From: Naegleria gruberi
Taxonomy: Eukaryota
Assembly (NCBI GenBank): GCA_000004985.1
Contig: GG738854.1
Reading direction: 5' to 3' (one strand)
Length of the DNA stretch: 64,000 nt
Within the stretch, counting starts at the first letter, position 1. Each line of letters opens with the position of its first letter. A model generated the notes under the pieces. That model was not told where the DNA came from. It saw only the letters and a list, made by a program, of their open reading frames with translations, and ran no database searches. Below are positions 5,341-52,537 of this stretch, piece after piece. A program made the translations under genes and the position numbers.

Positions 5341-5425
5341 GCTCATATAGCTCAGTGGTAGAGCATTTGTCTTATGAGAACTTAAGGTTAGCAGATGGCC
5401 GAGGGTTCGACCCCCTCTATGAGCA
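5341..5425 (+). tRNA. Intron-containing tRNA with a canonical cloverleaf. The anticodon loop is CUUAUG|A, giving anticodon UAU, which suggests tRNA-Ile(UAU). Position 37 is G, which is unusual. The intron is about 13 nt, located 3' of position 37.
   Basis: Acceptor stem GCTCATA pairs with TATGAGC, with discriminator A. D arm is GCTC-AGTGGTA-GAGC. Anticodon stem TTTGT/GCAGA has two G-U pairs. T arm is GAGGG-TTCGACC-CCCTC. The variable loop is 5 nt. There are 36 nt between the D arm and T arm where 22-23 are expected, so the extra is an intron. Confidence 0.6.
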
Positions 5426-5781: not shown

Positions 5782-5866
5782 TGCTCATAGAGGGGGTCGA
5801 ACCCTCGGCCATCTGCTAACCTTAAGTTCTCATAAGACAAATGCTCTACCACTGAGCTATATGAGC
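5782..5866 (-). tRNA. Second, identical copy of the intron-containing tRNA (UAU anticodon), convergent with the first copy.
   Basis: This is the exact reverse complement of 5341..5425. It lies inside a perfect inverted repeat of about 140 bp. Confidence 0.6.
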
Positions 5867-12028: not shown

Positions 12029-14281
12029 ATGTTTAGTAACTGCCATCATCATGATGATGCTGAACGTGTAGTAATTATATTGGACGATCATGACAAATTT
12101 ATGGAACAATTATTGAATAGCAAATATAAACAAGAACGAAATTTATCATGCTACAAACAAATATTAAAATATTTAACTAATACGAGAGGTTTAATATTAA
12201 AGTATTATGAATTACCTGTTATATTACGAAGAGATCGGAGATTCATCACTGAAATTGCACAAACTTTTGAATTTTACCAACAATTACCTGAAGAATTTAA
12301 ATCCGATAAACAAGTAATGCTAAATTGTTTTAAAAAGAAAGTATTTAATGGAAGTGATATTAAGAGTGGATATATTCCCTCTAATTTAATGAATGATAGG
12401 AAATTTATATTGGAATTAATTGAAGGAAATCCAACATGTCTCTATTTAGTACCGAAAGAAAGAGAATTCGTGTTGGCAGCAATGAAACACGATATTATAT
12501 ATTTGGGATTTCTCCCAGGAAGTGAAAAGAAGAATGAATCATACATGTGGGAATTGTTTTTGAAAAATTGGGAAAATTTAAGATTTGCAAGTGGTGAATT
12601 ACTAAATAATCCATCATTTGCTATAAAAGTAAGAAAGCATGATACCAATACTTTCAACTATTATTGTGGACGGCCACATTTGGCGGTTCATGCAAGGGAT
12701 AAATTTCGAAATAATAGAGAATATGTGCTTTTTGCTATTTTACATGGAAAAGCTGATTTTACAATGATAAAAAAGGTATTTCAAGCGGATTTGGAAATTA
12801 AAATGGCAAATAATATTAAAACTGATGCCTCCTTATGGAAATTAAAGGAAGAATGGGCAAATGACAAGGAAATGATTTTGAAATATGTCAAACATAATTC
12901 AAATATATTGAAATTTATTAATTTGGAATTACTACAGGATTATGAATTTAATATTAAATTAATTTACAAAAATATTGAAAGTATTCAATTTATTAATGAA
13001 TGCAATACTAATTTTAAACAATTATTTACACAATCAGATAAAACTGAATTAATTTCTAGATATTTAAGCAACAAAAAATTTAACATTAATTCCAAAATTA
13101 TAAATCCAACTAATATTAGAGCATTTGGTTCCAAAATTAATTATATACATTTTATAGAGGAATATTTAAATGAAAACGATTTAATTTATATAACAAGTAA
13201 TATTGATGGACAAGCATGTTACGGTTTGTTAAACGTAATTTCCAATAAGAAAATTTTCAATGAATGCTTACAATTATGGAAAATAACAGTTAAAAAGCAT
13301 TATTCATGTTATGAATTATTTAATATAAAATATACCAAACAAGATATTATTGAGATAATTTCATCCATGCATGAATCTCCTTTTCCATTCCTGGCACACA
13401 TTGATAGAAATGTATTTAGCTCTGAGAGTGAAGTTCTTCTCATTGCAATTCAAACCCATTTCAAGTGCTTTGAATTGGCAAGTAAAGAACTGAAATCTGA
13501 CTTGAATTTTATTAGAAAGTCAGTCAATTTAAATAGAAATATTATTAAAGTAATAGATTTGCAAATTGTACAAGATAATTTGGATTTATTGATTATTTAT
13601 ATAAATTATAAATTAAAAATCAATACCATGTATGGATATCAAAATAGCGCTCATGCATTAAATCCATTAATTAACATATTAGCAAAACATTTACAAAATG
13701 AGGATACAGTTTTACAATTAGTAGAAATACCCCAATTTGTAAATTTATTTTATGGCCATATAGATATTAATTTAAGATCAAGTGAGGAATTCTGTTTAAA
13801 AATATTAAAAACAGATTTGAATAATGCCACTAAAATTCCAAATTTAATTAAATATAGAAATTTCATAATTGAATTTCTAAAAGAGGGAAAATCCATTACA
13901 TTCATTCCTAAAATATTCGAACAGGATGAGGAATTTTTACATTTATTTTTTAAAAACTGGAATCGTACGGAATACCTTCCAATATTACCAGCGGATGAAA
14001 TTTTTATTGGTATTCTAATTAAGGAATTGAAAATTAACCCATCCATATATAGAAATTTTAATAATAGTGATCCGTTGAAACATAATTGGGATATATTATT
14101 GAATGTTGCCAGAGATGTAAATAGCTGTTTAGTTTTTCCCACCACAATATGGCAAGATGAGAATTTTAAATTGGAACTTGTGAAGAGAGGAATTTTTCCA
14201 CCTTCCTTTTTGAAACATTTTAATAGCATTTTGAACGATATGGATTTGATTGTAGAAAATGGTTTTTACTTGATTCAATAA
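12029..14281 (+). CDS. Asn/Ile-rich repeat protein, hypothetical. Degenerate repeats of about 35 aa resemble DUF4116-type repeats.
   Basis: A 750-codon ORF with ATG after aaaaaaaaa. Recurring blocks: DKQVMLNCFKK, EREFVLAAMKHD, NREYVLFAILHG, DKEMILKYVKHNSNILKFI. Confidence 0.45.
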   Translation: MFSNCHHHDDAERVVIILDDHDKFMEQLLNSKYKQERNLSCYKQILKYLTNTRGLILKYYELPVILRRDRRFITEIAQTFEFYQQLPEEFKSDKQVMLNCFKKKVFNGSDIKSGYIPSNLMNDRKFILELIEGNPTCLYLVPKEREFVLAAMKHDIIYLGFLPGSEKKNESYMWELFLKNWENLRFASGELLNNPSFAIKVRKHDTNTFNYYCGRPHLAVHARDKFRNNREYVLFAILHGKADFTMIKKVFQADLEIKMANNIKTDASLWKLKEEWANDKEMILKYVKHNSNILKFINLELLQDYEFNIKLIYKNIESIQFINECNTNFKQLFTQSDKTELISRYLSNKKFNINSKIINPTNIRAFGSKINYIHFIEEYLNENDLIYITSNIDGQACYGLLNVISNKKIFNECLQLWKITVKKHYSCYELFNIKYTKQDIIEIISSMHESPFPFLAHIDRNVFSSESEVLLIAIQTHFKCFELASKELKSDLNFIRKSVNLNRNIIKVIDLQIVQDNLDLLIIYINYKLKINTMYGYQNSAHALNPLINILAKHLQNEDTVLQLVEIPQFVNLFYGHIDINLRSSEEFCLKILKTDLNNATKIPNLIKYRNFIIEFLKEGKSITFIPKIFEQDEEFLHLFFKNWNRTEYLPILPADEIFIGILIKELKINPSIYRNFNNSDPLKHNWDILLNVARDVNSCLVFPTTIWQDENFKLELVKRGIFPPSFLKHFNSILNDMDLIVENGFYLIQ

Positions 14282-28711: not shown

Positions 28712-30169
28712 ATGATGCAACAACAAGATACTAATTCAACAACAACAACAACAACAGAAGGAATGCTCGAGCTTCATGCAGAAGTTGATATTGTTAGAAA
28801 AGGGAGAAGATCAATTCCTTCCGAAATTTTGAGTTTAATCTTTAGTTATGCGATGGTGGATATAGTTGATGGAGAAATGATAAGAAAGGTTGGTGTATTG
28901 AGAGAGCTTGGTTCTGATTTTGTTGAGGCTATTGCAGACAATGTTAGACAATTGAATGTTGGATCCTTGTTGAGGTGTTATAAGGGAAACAAGTTGTCAG
29001 ATTATGCCTCCCACTTGTCAAGAAATATTGACAAGATTGTTCACATATTCCCAAAGCTTGAAAGATTGTTTCTTGATGGCTTGTCAGAATTGAAAGAGAA
29101 TCAATTGGAATACTTGCTAAATGAGTTGAATTTGAAGGAGATTTCAATTGTTGGATGTCCAATTAGTCAATTTAATTGTCCTGATATTGCTCAATTTGAA
29201 GTAATTACTGTTGATCAAGCTAATACAGAATTGAGATCGTCCCTATATAGACAAATATCCCTCTCCATTTACAATGGAAAGCCAAAAACTCGTGTTAAAG
29301 TGCCAGAAGGAATCAACTGCTTTCTCAAAACCCTCACTGGTACGGTATGTGAGCTAGAGCTGTCTTCAAGAGATACAGTCCATGATGTAAAAATGGTTTT
29401 CGAAGGATATTCTGGAGTTTATGCTGATAACCAACGTATGATATTTGCTGGGAAAAGATTGGCCGATGATAGGTGCTTGTACGAGTATGGTTGCACAAAT
29501 TCAGATTCAACCATTCATGTCGTATTGAGATTGTCTCAGGACTCTAATACTAAGATGCTTGACCTTCCAAATTATAACCAGATTAAATTCACTCCTCAAG
29601 AGGAATTGAAATCTTCCACTCTTTACGAACATGATGAGTTTAAAGTCTTGGAGTTGGACATTTTCAATGAGACCACGTGTGAAGTCTTAACAAAGGATAT
29701 TCTATATGAGAAAAAAGATGATTTTGACTATAACATTACCACTGTTTTGTCCAAGCCATTCAAGAGATATCTCAATACTACAGTCATTCCTTACCTTAAC
29801 AATTTGAGAAAGTTTGATAGGAAAATTCAAGAAGTGCAAGATATTTTCGTGGTTCACTACTCTCTCGAAGAGGATCAAGATTTAATCCTTCACACTGATC
29901 CTTCTTATATTACTTTGAATATTTGTGTTCATATATCGAACAATTTTACAGGAAATGAAATTGAGTTCATCACTCAAAACGAACAACAAGTGAGTGAGTT
30001 AGTGGAAAAGTGTGGATGTGGTCAGGATATTGATTCATCCATCAATTATACCTACAGAAGAGTTACACCAACAATCGGTAAAGCTTTAGTTCATCTTGGA
30101 AATCATCCTCACAAAACTCTCAACATTACCAGTGGCAATAGATTTAACATTATCTGTTGGTTGAAATAA
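28712..30169 (+). CDS. Multidomain protein: F-box-like N-terminus, a ubiquitin-like domain, and a C-terminal 2-oxoglutarate/Fe(II)-dioxygenase-like domain.
   Basis: F-box-like: IPSEILSLIFSYAMVD. Ubiquitin-like: VKVPEGINCFLKTLTGTVCELELSSRDTVHDVKMVFEGYSGVYADNQRMIFAGKRLADDRCLYEYGCTNSDSTIHVVLRL. Dioxygenase triad candidates: HTD (LILHTDPSY), a distal H (LVHLGNHPHK), and R (NRFNIICW). Confidence 0.65.
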   Translation: MMQQQDTNSTTTTTTEGMLELHAEVDIVRKGRRSIPSEILSLIFSYAMVDIVDGEMIRKVGVLRELGSDFVEAIADNVRQLNVGSLLRCYKGNKLSDYASHLSRNIDKIVHIFPKLERLFLDGLSELKENQLEYLLNELNLKEISIVGCPISQFNCPDIAQFEVITVDQANTELRSSLYRQISLSIYNGKPKTRVKVPEGINCFLKTLTGTVCELELSSRDTVHDVKMVFEGYSGVYADNQRMIFAGKRLADDRCLYEYGCTNSDSTIHVVLRLSQDSNTKMLDLPNYNQIKFTPQEELKSSTLYEHDEFKVLELDIFNETTCEVLTKDILYEKKDDFDYNITTVLSKPFKRYLNTTVIPYLNNLRKFDRKIQEVQDIFVVHYSLEEDQDLILHTDPSYITLNICVHISNNFTGNEIEFITQNEQQVSELVEKCGCGQDIDSSINYTYRRVTPTIGKALVHLGNHPHKTLNITSGNRFNIICWLK

Positions 30170-32451: not shown

Positions 32452-33495
32452 ATGTTCAAACATCAAATCGAAGGAATGATGTGGTGTTTGGCTGTTGGTG
32501 ATGCCTTGGGCATTCCGTTTGAATGCAAAACTTATTCAGAGATTTTAAAAATGCGGGAAAATGCGGAGGAGAAATTGGAAAATCCATATAGGAAGTGTTG
32601 TGGCCATCCGTTCATTCCTGATGATTTTGAACCGGGAATGTATACGGATGATACACAATTGAGTTTGGCCATGTTTCGTGCATTGGAAAGGTATGGACAC
32701 AAGTTGAGTGATCAAGTAGAATTTGAGAAATCATTAATGCCCTTAATAGTTGAGGAACATGTCAAGGAATTTGAAAAATCAATTGTTGGTTGGGGAGGCA
32801 CACGTGATGCTATCAAGAGGTTACAACAGAAAACACATTCGTATAAGGATTCGGGTAATGTTGGAGCTGTTGGAAATGGAGTGATTATGAAGTTGGCTCC
32901 CCTCTTCTTGTTTTATTTCAGAGAATTGAAATTGGATGAATTGACAAGAGAGGAAGCTATAGAAAAGATTGAAAATATTTCAAATGAATGGTTGAATGAC
33001 CAAGTGACTGTAATTACAAAAATGACACATGACACTCAATCATGCATTGTAACCAGTTGCTTAATGATTAGATTTGGAATGTTAATTTTACTATATGGAA
33101 AGGAATTTATCAATTTCAAGAAGGAAATCTTTTCAAATTTATTGAAATATTGTAAAGAATTGGAAATTAATGATATAGCAAAAAGTATTACAACAAGAAT
33201 TCAAACTCTAATTGATAATTTGGATGATTTGAAAGATGACTTGACTCTTGTGAACATTACTAACGGAGGAACGTTTGAAAGTGTGAATAGCTTGATGATG
33301 GTTATTGGAATCGTCATGTCTTTGCAACCAAATCAGAAACCTTTCGAACTGATTGAAAGGGCAGCATATATTGGTGGTGATTGTGATTCTAATGCATCCA
33401 TGGTTGGTGGCTTGATTGGTTCTGTGTTTGGAAAGCAAATTATTCCAGATTCGTATATTAAGCATCTTGTTTTTGATTTTGAAATTTGTGAATAA
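32452..33495 (+). CDS. ADP-ribosylglycohydrolase (ARH) family protein.
   Basis: MMWCLAVGDALGIPFE, GMYTDDTQLSLAMFRALE, IGGDCDSNASMVGGLIGSVFG. ATG after cccaaaaaaaATG. An E2F-like site lies 25 bp upstream. Confidence 0.8.
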   Translation: MFKHQIEGMMWCLAVGDALGIPFECKTYSEILKMRENAEEKLENPYRKCCGHPFIPDDFEPGMYTDDTQLSLAMFRALERYGHKLSDQVEFEKSLMPLIVEEHVKEFEKSIVGWGGTRDAIKRLQQKTHSYKDSGNVGAVGNGVIMKLAPLFLFYFRELKLDELTREEAIEKIENISNEWLNDQVTVITKMTHDTQSCIVTSCLMIRFGMLILLYGKEFINFKKEIFSNLLKYCKELEINDIAKSITTRIQTLIDNLDDLKDDLTLVNITNGGTFESVNSLMMVIGIVMSLQPNQKPFELIERAAYIGGDCDSNASMVGGLIGSVFGKQIIPDSYIKHLVFDFEICE

Positions 33496-37914: not shown

Positions 37915-39213
37915 ATGAATAATAATCAAAGATTTGATGTTTTGATTCTCTCCACCATTTTTTCATTTCTTCCCGCCAAAAATTATTTACTGAAAATTTG
38001 TCTTGTTTGTCGAGATTGGAATTTTTCAAATTCTTGTAAAATTAATAATCATGAGAATAATAACGATCAGAATTATCCTCTTCCGATGGTTGCACTTGAT
38101 TTATCCAACCGTAAGATTTTTGATGAAAAATTAGTAAAATTACTTGATGAGCAATTGGATCGGTATGATTGGAGAAATTTGAGAATATTAAATTTGGAGA
38201 AGAATCTTATTGAACGTATTGGTTGTTTGATGGAGACAGGGAGATCGTTGCAATTGAGTAATTTGAGAGTTTTAAATTTGAATGAAAATCAAATTGATGA
38301 GGAGTGTAGTTTGTTGTGTTGTGGTGTGGAAAATTTTATCAATTTGAAGGAATTATATTTGAGAACGAATTTTATTAGAAATATTGTTGTGAGAACGCAA
38401 TTTCCTGCTTTGGAAACGTTGGATTTGAGTGGTAATTGTATTGGAAATCAGGGAGTTGTTTCTTTATTGAAGGATGGTCTTGAAAATTTCCCAAACTTGC
38501 GAAAATTAGTGCTTTCTAATGTGGATATGAAGAGTTTGGATCCATTGCTCATGAATTGCCACAATTGCCCAAAATTGAAATGTTTAGATTTTAGTAATAA
38601 TTTTATTTATAACTCACAAACGATTCATTATAAGCATTTTAATTTTCCATTATTGGATGAGCTATATTGCTCAGCAGTTAATTCTACAGCTCGTTTACAA
38701 GAATTAATTGTGGAAAAATCACTTGATTCCTCCCTCACAACACTTGATTTATCACAATGTTATGTTGGAGAAGTTTTTTTGAAAGCTCTTTCTTTGGGAG
38801 AATTCAAGAAATTGACTAAACTCTTACTATCTAATAATGAAATTGGAAATGAGGAAGTTCTGCTATTGGGAAAACTTGACATGCCGAATCTAGTTCATCT
38901 CAATCTTGATGATAACCTAATTGGATTGGAAGGCGCTAACATCATTTCCAATTTTACTAATTTTCCTCAATTAGAATTTCTTTCCTGTAGAAAATATCCC
39001 GCAACAAAACACAAAACATTTGAAAGTTATTCATTGAATAATTTTCTTGAGGATTGCAGGGAGGAATTGGGAGAGGAATTAGAGGAGGAAGAAGAAGATT
39101 GTGAAGAGGATTATTATGGAGGTTTACGTAATTCGAAAGGAAAGGAAATTAGTTTTGTATCGTCGTTTGTTAGCTTTACTTGGACAAAAAGTGATTATGT
39201 CTATGTCTATTAA
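37915..39213 (+). CDS. F-box-like / RNI-type leucine-rich-repeat protein.
   Basis: N-terminal FDVLILSTIFSFLPAKNYLLKICLVCRDWNF. LRRs: LRILNLEKNLIERIG, LRVLNLNENQIDEE, LETLDLSGNCIGNQGVVSL, LRKLVLSNVDMKSL. Acidic C-terminal tail. Confidence 0.75.
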   Translation: MNNNQRFDVLILSTIFSFLPAKNYLLKICLVCRDWNFSNSCKINNHENNNDQNYPLPMVALDLSNRKIFDEKLVKLLDEQLDRYDWRNLRILNLEKNLIERIGCLMETGRSLQLSNLRVLNLNENQIDEECSLLCCGVENFINLKELYLRTNFIRNIVVRTQFPALETLDLSGNCIGNQGVVSLLKDGLENFPNLRKLVLSNVDMKSLDPLLMNCHNCPKLKCLDFSNNFIYNSQTIHYKHFNFPLLDELYCSAVNSTARLQELIVEKSLDSSLTTLDLSQCYVGEVFLKALSLGEFKKLTKLLLSNNEIGNEEVLLLGKLDMPNLVHLNLDDNLIGLEGANIISNFTNFPQLEFLSCRKYPATKHKTFESYSLNNFLEDCREELGEELEEEEEDCEEDYYGGLRNSKGKEISFVSSFVSFTWTKSDYVYVY

Positions 39214-51071: not shown

Positions 51072-52537
51072 TCAATAATCTTGCTGGGCAAGGAGAATGA
51101 TAACTTGAGAGGCAAGGGACATGTCATGAAGTGAAACGAATTCGCTCTGTGAAAATGTAAACTTGAATGAAAAATTCAGTAAAAACTTACAGTTGAGTGG
51201 AAATTGTGGCCACCTGCGAAAATGTTAGCAGTTGGAAGACCCATCCAACTCAATTGAGAACCGTCAGTTCCTCCTCTAATAGAAACTTGCTTAACTTCCT
51301 CAATATTCAATTCCTTATAGGTTTCGATAATGCTCTTTTCCAAGTATGGATACTTGTCAATGATTTGTCTCATATTTCTGTATTGCTTGGTGAAAGTTGT
51401 TTCGATGGTTGCATTTTGATGTTCAGATTGAAGTTTGGCAACAATTTCCTTGATAATTTTTTGATAATTTTCCAAACCTTCATCATCAAAAGCTCTCAAT
51501 AAACATCTAATAGTTGACTTGTCAACATTTCCATTAAAATCCATACAGTGAATGAATCCTTGTCTGTCCTTGCTTACTTCTGGTGTTAAAACTTGATCAT
51601 TTGAAAATATCAAATCCAAAAATTTAGAAGCGACTTTGAGAGAGTTGACCATTCTACCATATGAATATCCTGGGTGAATGTTAAATCCTTTGAAAACCAA
51701 GGTAACAAGATCAGCACTGAAAGATTCAATATTATAGGTTCCAACTTCAGCTCCATCAGCAGTAAAAGCAACATCAGCACCAAACTTGGTTAAATTGAAA
51801 TAGTGTGGTCCTCTTCCAATTTCCTCATCAATAGTAAAAGCAATCTTAATATCACCATGTTTAATACTTGGATTATTCACTAAATATTCAACAGCAACCA
51901 TCATTTCAGCAACTCCTGATTTGTCATCCGATCCCAACAATGTTTCTCCACTGGCAGTCACAATATCATGTCCAATCATTTTAGCAAGCGATTTTCCATC
52001 AATTGCATACTCTACAATTGTTTTTCCATTCACAACCAAATCATTGCCGTCCTTATAATTTCTATGAACAATTGGCTTGACATTTGCTCCACTAAGCTCT
52101 GTAGCAGTGTCCATATGTGCCAAAAATCCAATATTTGTCTTTCTTTCGACATTTCCTGGCAAGACAGCATATACATTTCCATATTGATCCATTTCAGCTT
52201 GCAAATTCAAAGCTTTCAACTCATCAAGTAAAACCCGTGCAAAAATTAATTGTTTTTCAGTGCTCGGAACAGAAGCAGAAAGTGCATCACTCTGTGTATC
52301 AAATGTTACATAGTGCAGGAAACGTTCTTCCAATCGTTTTCTCATCCAATCTTGTTCCGTGATGGAAAATTTGGAATTTTCATAAATTAATTTTTTAATA
52401 TTTGATGGTGATGATTGTTCTCCGTTGAGTCCGATCTGGATGGATTCTTCCTGTGTTGCTGCGATGACGGAATAAGAAGCAAGCAACAAGAGGAGAAGCA
52501 AGGGAATAAATTGTTTCATTTTTTTTGTAATCAACAT
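51072..52537 (-). CDS. Peptidase T-like (M20B tripeptide aminopeptidase) with an N-terminal signal peptide. Two exons: 52537..51191 and 51146..51072.
   Basis: Signal-like MKQFIPLLLLLLLASYSVIAA. M20 motifs: LAHMDTATE, GSDDKSGVAEMM, IDEEIGRGPHYF, GGTDGSQLSWMGLP, GGHNFHST. The 44-nt intron 51147..51190 (GTAAGT...TTTCACAG) joins HNFHST to SEFVSLHDMSLASQVIILLAQQDY*, which is a typical PepT C-terminus. An alternative start is the ATG at 52519. Confidence 0.75.

What the first reader, a model, noticed from the sequence alone, without database searches (positions are those of the whole stretch)
28712..30169. Unusual fusion of F-box-like, ubiquitin-like and 2OG-Fe(II)-dioxygenase-like domains
A bona fide ubiquitin fold (ubiquitin-like conservation including the ...HVVLRL end) lies between an N-terminal F-box-like/LRR region and a C-terminal segment with an HxD...H...R arrangement, as in prolyl and other 2OG oxygenases. 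In social amoebae a 2OG prolyl hydroxylase modifies the SCF adaptor Skp1. A single protein combining SCF-recruitment, Ubl and hydroxylase-like modules would be a new arrangement linking oxygen sensing and ubiquitination.
Basis: partly seen in the sequence, partly recalled or inferred. Interest (0 to 1): 0.55.

Follow-up and report, generated by a model that had tools for sequence, protein, structure and literature searches.

The report
F-box, ubiquitin-like, OGFOD2-type hydroxylase fusion
An apparently unannotated Naegleria gruberi gene encodes one protein that joins a probable F-box/leucine-rich-repeat module, a ubiquitin-like domain without the diglycine cleavage site and an intact iron/2-oxoglutarate hydroxylase of the uncharacterised OGFOD2 family, one case of a link between this enzyme family and the ubiquitin system that I found described in no paper.

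Summary

The closest characterised relatives are lysyl hydroxylases, not the Skp1 prolyl hydroxylase. The same three-part protein exists in Naegleria lovaniensis and Willaertia magna. Ub-oxygenase and E2-oxygenase fusions occur in several other protist groups. KDM2A/B (F-box plus 2OG oxygenase) and FBXO7 (Ubl plus F-box) are precedents.

The most likely function is a protein hydroxylase tethered to the SCF/ubiquitin-proteasome machinery. Its substrate is unknown.

I rate it a new variant of a known kind, of moderate interest. Its main value is a fusion-based clue to the function of OGFOD2.

The parts
28712..30169 (+). Complete single-exon ORF, 485 aa plus stop. Naegleria gruberi gene, apparently not in the annotated protein set.
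   Evidence: ORF list. Chance of this open frame is about 6e-14. A neighbouring ORF is identical to N. gruberi XP_002680259.1. This ORF is absent from the collection under 5 start variants, and the homology search found no near-identical protein.
28712..28810 (+). Low-complexity leader (aa 1-33; poly-Q/poly-T). The orthologues have a much shorter leader or none before the F-box motif. The real start could be Met18.
   Evidence: Alignments A5 and A7. pLDDT<50 for residues 1-14 and 36-56 across the first three 10-residue blocks.
28811..28945 (+). Divergent F-box-like segment (aa 34-78). It has the motif IPSEILSLIFSY and three predicted helices (37-48, 54-66, 68-76).
   Evidence: Pfam F-box-like E=0.055, below cut-off. 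Orthologues score 0.017 and 0.0041 at the same place. hhalign against a validated F-box profile: 92% probability, P=5.6e-7, 20 columns. The profile alignment to FBXL2, FBXL17 and TIR1 starts at their F-boxes. Helices come from the AF2 model with pTM 0.74.
28946..29281 (+). About four FBXL-type (Cys-containing) leucine-rich repeats plus a capping helix (aa 79-190).
29309..29536 (+). Ubiquitin-like domain (aa 200-275), 46% identical to ubiquitin. The hydrophobic patch and K48 are kept. The tail is LRLSQD, with no Gly-Gly, so it is inferred to be neither cleavable nor conjugatable.
29603..29833 (+). N-terminal subdomain of the OGFOD2-like oxygenase (aa 298-374; strands 301-316, helices 320-333 and 344-364). 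It lacks the family's RPNSMNxYG motif.
   Evidence: Independent family profile aligned over 298-485. The motif is absent in all 31 Ub-fused members and present in 84 of 95 non-Ub members. Secondary structure.
29834..30166 (+). Double-stranded beta-helix catalytic core (aa 375-485), with an inserted helix at about 421-447.
29891..29899 (+). H394-T-D396: the HxD pair of predicted Fe(II) ligands.
   Evidence: Invariant in 130 and 150 aligned relatives. Aligned to the HxD motif of lysyl hydroxylase L230, printed as 'HHD' in the alignment. Coordinates.
30110..30112 (+). H467: predicted distal Fe(II) ligand.
   Evidence: More than 90% conserved. Invariant in A1.
30140..30142 (+). R477 (His+10): predicted binder of the 2-oxoglutarate C5 carboxylate.
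   Evidence: More than 90% conserved. Aligned with the conserved Arg of the L230 lysyl hydroxylase. The role is inferred from established 2OG-oxygenase chemistry.

Best explanation
The ORF encodes a catalytically competent Fe(II)/2-oxoglutarate-dependent protein hydroxylase of the OGFOD2-like family, a sister family of the collagen lysyl hydroxylase catalytic domain. Two targeting modules in the same polypeptide hold it at the ubiquitin system.

(i) A ubiquitin-like domain lacks the Gly-Gly end, so it should stay attached. It keeps the Leu8/Ile44/Val70 patch that ubiquitin receptors read.

(ii) An N-terminal, divergent FBXL-type F-box with about four LRRs probably docks on Skp1 (the SCF ligase) or on another partner.

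The enzyme would then hydroxylate a Lys or Pro side chain, with O2 and 2OG as co-substrates, on a protein it meets there: an SCF or ubiquitin-pathway component, or an SCF substrate.

Shown: the ORF, the ubiquitin domain, family membership of the oxygenase, conservation of the metal and 2OG ligands, the fold match, the LRRs, and the recurrence of Ub, E2 and F-box fusions in this family. Inferred: enzymatic activity, Skp1 binding, non-cleavage of the Ubl, and the identity and residue type of the substrate.
For: The ubiquitin domain is significant and its tail is LRLSQD.

Association with the ubiquitin system: among the closest 130 relatives, 24 carry ubiquitin and 5 carry an E2 domain. E2-Ub-Ub-oxygenase proteins come from two independent sources. 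In most fusions the Ub tail has mutated away from RGG, as expected if the Ub part is kept as a domain. Four orthologues keep the whole architecture at only about 33-36% identity, which argues for selection on it.
Against: No Pfam F-box or 2OG model reaches its curated cut-off on this protein.

The family's RPNSMNxYG motif is absent, so substrate binding may differ from canonical OGFOD2. No member of the OGFOD2 family has a known substrate (PMC10083964).

I have no expression evidence, and the gene is not in the annotated N. gruberi protein set.
Confidence: 0.6

Rival explanations
1. The N-terminus is just an LRR protein-interaction domain with capping helices. The F-box is vestigial or only apparent, and the protein never joins an SCF complex. 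It would be an LRR-targeted Ubl-oxygenase that works like the simpler Ub-OGFOD2-like proteins of other protists.
For: Pfam F-box scores are below cut-off. hhalign similarity is limited to 20 columns. A PDB search with the F-box segment alone gave only spurious hits. Foldseek was not significant. Most Ub-oxygenase relatives have no N-terminal module at all.
Confidence: 0.28
2. This is the first reader's model: a prolyl 4-hydroxylase related to the Skp1 hydroxylase PhyA. It is recruited through its F-box to hydroxylate Skp1 and so couples oxygen level to SCF activity.
Confidence: 0.07
3. This is a ubiquitin-precursor type fusion, like Ub-L40 or Ub-S27a. The ubiquitin part would be cut off by deubiquitinases, releasing an F-box-LRR-Ub piece and a free oxygenase.
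For: The Willaertia, N. lovaniensis and ENA orthologues keep LRLRGG followed by K, Q or R, so cleavage is conceivable in them.
Against: In this protein the tail is LRLSQD, with no Gly-Gly. Most Ub-oxygenase fusions have likewise lost RGG. The ubiquitin is internal, not N-terminal.
Confidence: 0.03
4. The ORF is a non-expressed or decaying gene copy, which would explain its absence from the annotation.
For: It is not in the protein collection, although neighbouring N. gruberi genes are. The F-box is more degenerate and the Gly-Gly is lost compared with the orthologues.
Against: The frame is 485 codons with no interruption (P about 6e-14). All catalytic ligands and the ubiquitin core are conserved. 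The domain models are confident.
Confidence: 0.05

Closest known systems
OGFOD2 / OGFOD2-like oxygenases (Pfam PF25238 plus a 2OG-Fe(II) oxygenase domain)
   Same: Same catalytic family. An independent family profile scores 82 bits over residues 298-485. 109 of the 130 nearest relatives hit PF25238. The HxD...H...R residues are conserved.
   Different: The window protein itself gives no PF25238 hit. It lacks the RPNSMNxYG motif found in 84 of 95 non-Ub members. It carries Ubl and F-box/LRR modules. The function of OGFOD2 is unknown (PMC10083964).
Collagen lysyl hydroxylase catalytic domain (mimivirus L230, PDB 6ax6; human LH3/PLOD3)
   Different: There are no glycosyltransferase domains and no sign of a collagen substrate. 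Identity is only about 23%. Lysine as the target residue is an inference.
KDM2A/KDM2B (FBXL11/FBXL10)
   Same: One polypeptide combines a 2OG/Fe(II) oxygenase with an F-box and FBXL-type LRRs (PMC7729025). The KDM2A/B F-box/LRR structures are among the matches to the N-terminal profile and model.
   Different: The oxygenase there is a JmjC demethylase placed N-terminal to the F-box, and there is no Ubl. Here the order is F-box-LRR-Ubl-oxygenase and the oxygenase is of the lysyl/prolyl-hydroxylase type.
FBXO7 (PARK15)
   Same: An F-box protein that also carries an integral ubiquitin-like domain (PMC3814724).
   Different: In FBXO7 the Ubl is N-terminal to the F-box, there are no LRRs and there is no enzyme domain. 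The domain order in FBXO7 is from my own knowledge.
Ub-OGFOD2-like and E2-OGFOD2-like fusions of other protists (e.g. Aplanochytrium stocchinoi A0A7S3LQB2; Nonionella stella E2-Ub-Ub-oxygenase; Rhizamoeba saxonica E2-oxygenase)
   Same: A ubiquitin domain sits directly upstream of the same oxygenase subfamily, the motif is absent, and the Ub tail is usually mutated from RGG.
   Different: They have no F-box/LRR module. Their ubiquitin is close to canonical, whereas here it is 46% identical to ubiquitin.
PhyA, the Skp1 prolyl 4-hydroxylase of Dictyostelium (PDB 6t8m)

Membership tests
Ubiquitin family (PF00240) | Score above the Pfam gathering threshold; beta-grasp fold | tested here: met
Ubiquitin family (conjugatable modifier or cleavable precursor) | C-terminal LRLRGG with a Gly-Gly at the processing site | tested here: not met
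   The tail is LRLSQD. The domain is therefore an integral Ubl, not a modifier.
2OG-Fe(II) oxygenase superfamily | HxD/E...H metal triad plus a basic residue that binds the 2OG C5 carboxylate | tested here: met
   H394, D396, H467 and R477. H394 and D396 are invariant, H467 and R477 more than 90% conserved in 130-150 relatives. They align with the HxD, distal His and Arg of L230.
2OG-Fe(II) oxygenase superfamily | Double-stranded beta-helix fold | tested here: met
2OG-Fe(II) oxygenase superfamily | Pfam PF03171/PF13640 gathering threshold | tested here: not met
   PF03171 scores 11.5 bits against a cut-off of 23, E=0.38, although it aligns over profile positions 4-99 of 101.
OGFOD2-like family | Significant match to a family profile | tested here: met
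OGFOD2-like family | Pfam PF25238 gathering threshold, and the RPNSMNxYG motif of the N-terminal subdomain | tested here: not met
   There is no PF25238 hit on the window protein. The Willaertia orthologue scores 17.2 bits against a cut-off of 31. The motif is absent. It is a divergent, Ub-linked subtype.
F-box proteins | Pfam F-box (PF00646) or F-box-like (PF12937) gathering threshold | tested here: not met
   13.7 bits against a cut-off of 24.3 (E=0.055) here. Orthologues score 15.5 against 20.5 and 17.3 against 24.3.
F-box proteins | LPxE(I/L)L...I(F/L)s.L helix-1 motif followed by two more helices, directly upstream of the substrate-binding repeats | tested here: inconclusive
   The helix-1 motif is present and conserved. 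hhalign against a validated F-box profile gives 92% probability, P=5.6e-7, but over only 20 columns. Three helices are predicted. The match to FBXL2, FBXL17 and TIR1 is colinear. The conserved Trp is missing in this species.
F-box proteins | Binding to Skp1 | not testable with these tools
   This needs a complex prediction or a pull-down with N. gruberi Skp1.
FBXL-type LRR | Tandem Cys-containing LRRs of about 26 residues that form a solenoid | tested here: met
Skp1 prolyl 4-hydroxylase (PhyA) / HIF-type PHDs | Specific sequence relationship to PHD-type P4H domains | tested here: not met
Collagen lysyl hydroxylases (PLOD) | Lysyl 5-hydroxylase activity on collagen-type sequences; accessory glycosyltransferase domains | not tested
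   Only the catalytic-domain similarity was shown. No glycosyltransferase domain is present in the 485-aa protein. Activity cannot be tested here.

The most novel reading that the evidence does not exclude
OGFOD2-like oxygenases, including uncharacterised human OGFOD2, are hydroxylases of the ubiquitin machinery itself. Their targets would be Lys or Pro residues of ubiquitin, E2s, Skp1 or cullins. The heterolobosean F-box-LRR-Ubl version would be an SCF-embedded hydroxylase that makes ubiquitylation directly dependent on O2 and 2-oxoglutarate. The repeated, independent fusions to Ub, E2 and F-box would then be 'Rosetta-stone' evidence for a post-translational modification of the ubiquitin system that has not been described.
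Probability: 0.2. Interest if true: 0.8.

Novelty: new variant of a known kind. Interest (0 to 1): 0.5.

Why it matters
OGFOD2 is one of the few human 2OG oxygenases with no known substrate (PMC10083964).

This locus and its relatives show that the family's catalytic domain has been joined repeatedly, in distant protist lineages, to ubiquitin, to E2 enzymes and, in Heterolobosea, to a probable F-box/LRR module. That gives a concrete, testable place to look for the substrate: the ubiquitin-proteasome system. The similarity to lysyl hydroxylases gives a candidate chemistry, hydroxylation of lysine.

If the F-box is functional, this would be an F-box/FBXL-type protein that carries a non-JmjC oxygenase.

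The ORF also seems to be missing from the N. gruberi gene set, so it is a small annotation correction for a model protist.

Tried and rejected
1. A homology search with the N-terminal 200 residues alone found nothing at E<=0.1. The F-box/LRR signal appeared only after three orthologues were added.

2. A two-sequence profile of the F-box segment alone, searched against PDB, gave only spurious repeat hits to de novo designed TIM barrels and coiled coils. I discarded them.

3. The first full-length AlphaFold model had an uninterpretable N-terminus (pLDDT<50 over residues 1-170). I re-modelled residues 1-200 with four orthologues (pLDDT 78.6).

5. The afdb50 fold library was unavailable.

6. Exact look-ups in the contig index failed for every window protein tried, and even for annotated N. 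gruberi peptidase T. This assembly is evidently not indexed there, so those negatives say nothing about annotation. The exact-sequence protein look-up was informative instead.

7. Synteny: the Willaertia and N. lovaniensis orthologues have unrelated neighbours.

8. Literature searches found no description of this architecture and no substrate for OGFOD2. Terms tried: OGFOD2; 2OGFeDO with ubiquitin; F-box with Ubl, 2-oxoglutarate and Naegleria; Skp1 with PhyA, Gnt1 and Naegleria; OGFOD2 with lysyl hydroxylase.

9. I rejected the cleavable ubiquitin-precursor reading for this protein because the Gly-Gly is absent.

10. The neighbour-joining tree of the catalytic domains recovered the four F-box proteins as one clade. 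It did not place that clade next to the other Ub-fused members, so I draw no conclusion on how many times the fusion arose.

Full report
**What is there**

Window 28712-30169 (+) is a single uninterrupted ORF of 485 codons with an ATG start. At the window's own stop-trinucleotide frequency (0.061), an open frame this long has a chance probability of about 6e-14.

The window is Naegleria gruberi NEG-M. The ORF at 32452-33492 is letter-for-letter XP_002680259.1. The peptidase T ORF at 51176-52537 is 100% identical to XP_002680389.1 over the 99% of it that aligns.

The ORF under study is not in the 15-billion-protein collection under any of five possible start codons. A homology search found no near-identical protein. 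It therefore appears to be unannotated in N. gruberi. A tRNA-Lys(UUU) gene lies 300 bp upstream on the other strand.

**The middle: ubiquitin**

- Pfam PF00240 matches residues 204-274 with E=3.5e-17, 62.4 bits against a cut-off of 25.4.
- The domain is 33/71 identical to ubiquitin and aligns end to end with PDB ubiquitins.
- Leu8, Ile44, Lys48, His68 and Val70 equivalents are kept.
- The tail reads HVVLRL-SQD instead of LRLRGG.
- By established knowledge of ubiquitin processing, it should therefore be neither released by deubiquitinases nor conjugated. It is an integral Ubl domain.

**The C-terminus: an OGFOD2-like 2OG/Fe(II) oxygenase**

Pfam 2OG-FeII_Oxy alone is sub-threshold (E=0.38), but the wider evidence is strong.

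- The first homology search found a Willaertia magna protein of the same length and layout (33% identity over residues 113-484).
- The same search found short metagenomic proteins made of ubiquitin + PF25238 'OGFOD2-like' + a 2OG domain.
- H394, D396, H467 and R477 are invariant in that first alignment.
- An exhaustive HMMER search with the C-terminal profile found 4,489 clusters at E<=1e-3. Of the closest 130 proteins, 109 hit PF25238.
- Across 130-150 sequences, H394 and D396 stay invariant, and H467 and R477 stay above 90%.
- To avoid circularity, I rebuilt a profile from 111 members without this protein and its three orthologues. It scores residues 298-485 at 82.3 bits.
- At sequence level, the family profile also hits L230 (E=7.3e-18) and LH3 (1.7e-11) first, and hits no PHD or PhyA entry.

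The domain is therefore a double-stranded beta-helix oxygenase with an intact triad. Its nearest characterised relatives are lysyl hydroxylases, not prolyl hydroxylases.

**The N-terminus: probably F-box plus LRR**

This is the least certain module.

- Alone, residues 1-200 find nothing.
- Pfam gives only sub-threshold F-box-like hits on the IPSEILSLIFSY helix. These are E=0.055 here, 0.017 in Willaertia and 0.0041 in N. lovaniensis, always at the equivalent position.
- The exhaustive search supplied two more orthologues with the same three-part layout. They are N. lovaniensis XP_044545796.1 and an unnamed ENA contig protein.
- A profile of the four N-termini matches PDB F-box/LRR proteins specifically. 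The hits are FBXL2 (E=4.3e-14), FBXL17 (6e-10), TIR1 (2.3e-6), SKP2 (1.4e-5), RAD7, FBXL5 and KDM2A.
- The alignments to FBXL2, FBXL17 and TIR1 begin at their F-box LPxE motif and run into the first LRRs.
- hhalign of the four F-box segments against a seven-sequence F-box profile gives 92% probability (P=5.6e-7), but over only 20 columns, i.e. helix 1. Two of the seven seed sequences came from tool output and five from memory.
- That F-box profile retrieves only F-box domains from PDB, including many non-seed proteins.
- With four sequences the N-terminal model becomes usable (pLDDT 78.6, pTM 0.74). It shows three helices followed by a strand-helix solenoid.

My reading is that the LRRs are established and the F-box is probable but degenerate in N. 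gruberi. The Trp of the 'CKxW' element survives in N. lovaniensis ('RCMRW') but not here.

**The wider pattern**

- Among proteins in hand that carry the oxygenase domain, 31 also carry ubiquitin.
- At least five carry an E2 (UQ_con) domain.
- Two independent sources give E2-Ub-Ub-oxygenase: the foraminifer Nonionella stella and an ENA/Logan contig.
- Named sources include Aplanochytrium (stramenopile), Nonionella (Rhizaria), Rhizamoeba (Amoebozoa) and the heteroloboseans.
- All 31 Ub-linked members lack the PN[ST]MN motif that 84 of 95 non-Ub members have. E2-only fusions keep it.
- In most fusions the ubiquitin tail is mutated (LRLSG, LRLRAG, LRLKAG and others). A few, including the three orthologues of this protein, keep LRLRGG.
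- The four F-box-type proteins are only about 33-36% identical to this one yet keep the whole layout. Their genomic neighbourhoods are unrelated.

**How it most likely works**

Shown:
- an intact oxygenase of the OGFOD2-like family;
- a ubiquitin-like domain without the Gly-Gly processing site;
- FBXL-type LRRs;
- a recurrent association of this enzyme family with ubiquitin-system domains.

Inferred:
- The protein is an active hydroxylase that uses O2 and 2OG.
- Its Ubl (intact Ile44 patch) and its F-box/LRR module place it on ubiquitin receptors and on Skp1/SCF.
- Its substrate is a protein met there.
- From the lysyl-hydroxylase kinship, the target residue may be lysine.

I put about 0.6 on this general model. 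The rivals are:
- the variant in which the F-box is non-functional (about 0.28);
- the cleavable-precursor idea;
- the pseudogene idea.

The last three are much less likely.

**Comparison with what is known**

- OGFOD2: same family, function unknown (PMC10083964).
- Collagen lysyl hydroxylases: nearest structures.
- KDM2A/B, also called FBXL11/10: a 2OG oxygenase with an F-box and LRRs, but of JmjC type and in a different order (PMC7729025).
- FBXO7: Ubl plus F-box (PMC3814724).
- The Ub/E2-oxygenase fusions of other protists: in sequence databases only.

No paper in the searchable library describes the F-box-LRR-Ubl-OGFOD2-like combination or the Ub/E2 fusions.

**Verdict**

- It is a new variant of known kinds, not a new category.
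- Interest is moderate (0.5). Its main value is a fusion-based hint at the function of an uncharacterised human enzyme family, plus a missing gene model in N. gruberi.

Noticed in passing
window 28712-30169: The ORF seems absent from the annotated N. gruberi NEG-M protein set. It is not found under five start variants, while ORFs a few kb away match XP_ entries exactly. This is a likely missing gene model.
   Followed up: partly
window 5341-5425 (+) and 5782-5866 (-): Two 85-nt tRNA genes with identical Rfam scores (61.4 bits) lie in inverted orientation about 360 bp apart. ARAGORN cannot assign an anticodon, so they probably contain introns.
   Followed up: no
window 51176-52537 (-): Peptidase T gene (XP_002680389.1). 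After the Naegleria and Willaertia orthologues and one unnamed JGI contig protein (55% identity), the next best hits are bacterial, mostly Ignavibacteria, at about 48% identity. This suggests lateral transfer from bacteria.
   Followed up: no
window 12029-14281 (+): A 750-aa ORF with a DUF4116 match (E=5.7e-32) lies in the lowest-GC stretch of the window (GC 0.258 at 12-14 kb).
   Followed up: no
window 32452-33495 (+); L001 6207-7834: An ADP-ribosylglycohydrolase (ARH3-like) gene lies 2.3 kb downstream of the ORF. In Willaertia, a PARP gene lies immediately upstream of the orthologue. There is no other shared neighbourhood, so this may be coincidence.
   Followed up: partly
related proteins P0005, P0050, P0097, P0155, P0161, P0165, P0172: E2 (UQ_con) domains are fused to the same oxygenase family, including E2-Ub-Ub-oxygenase in the foraminifer Nonionella stella. 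Ten of the 130 closest relatives carry ankyrin repeats.
   Followed up: partly
related proteins (31 Ub-linked against 95 non-Ub family members): The PN[ST]MN (RPNSMNxYG) motif of the OGFOD2-like N-terminal subdomain is missing in every Ub-linked member. It is present in 84 of 95 others and in the E2-only fusions. This is a clean subtype marker with no explanation yet.
   Followed up: partly
window 37915-39213 (+): A separate 432-aa LRR protein (LRR_4 E=3.6e-20) lies 8 kb downstream. I did not check it for an F-box.
   Followed up: no
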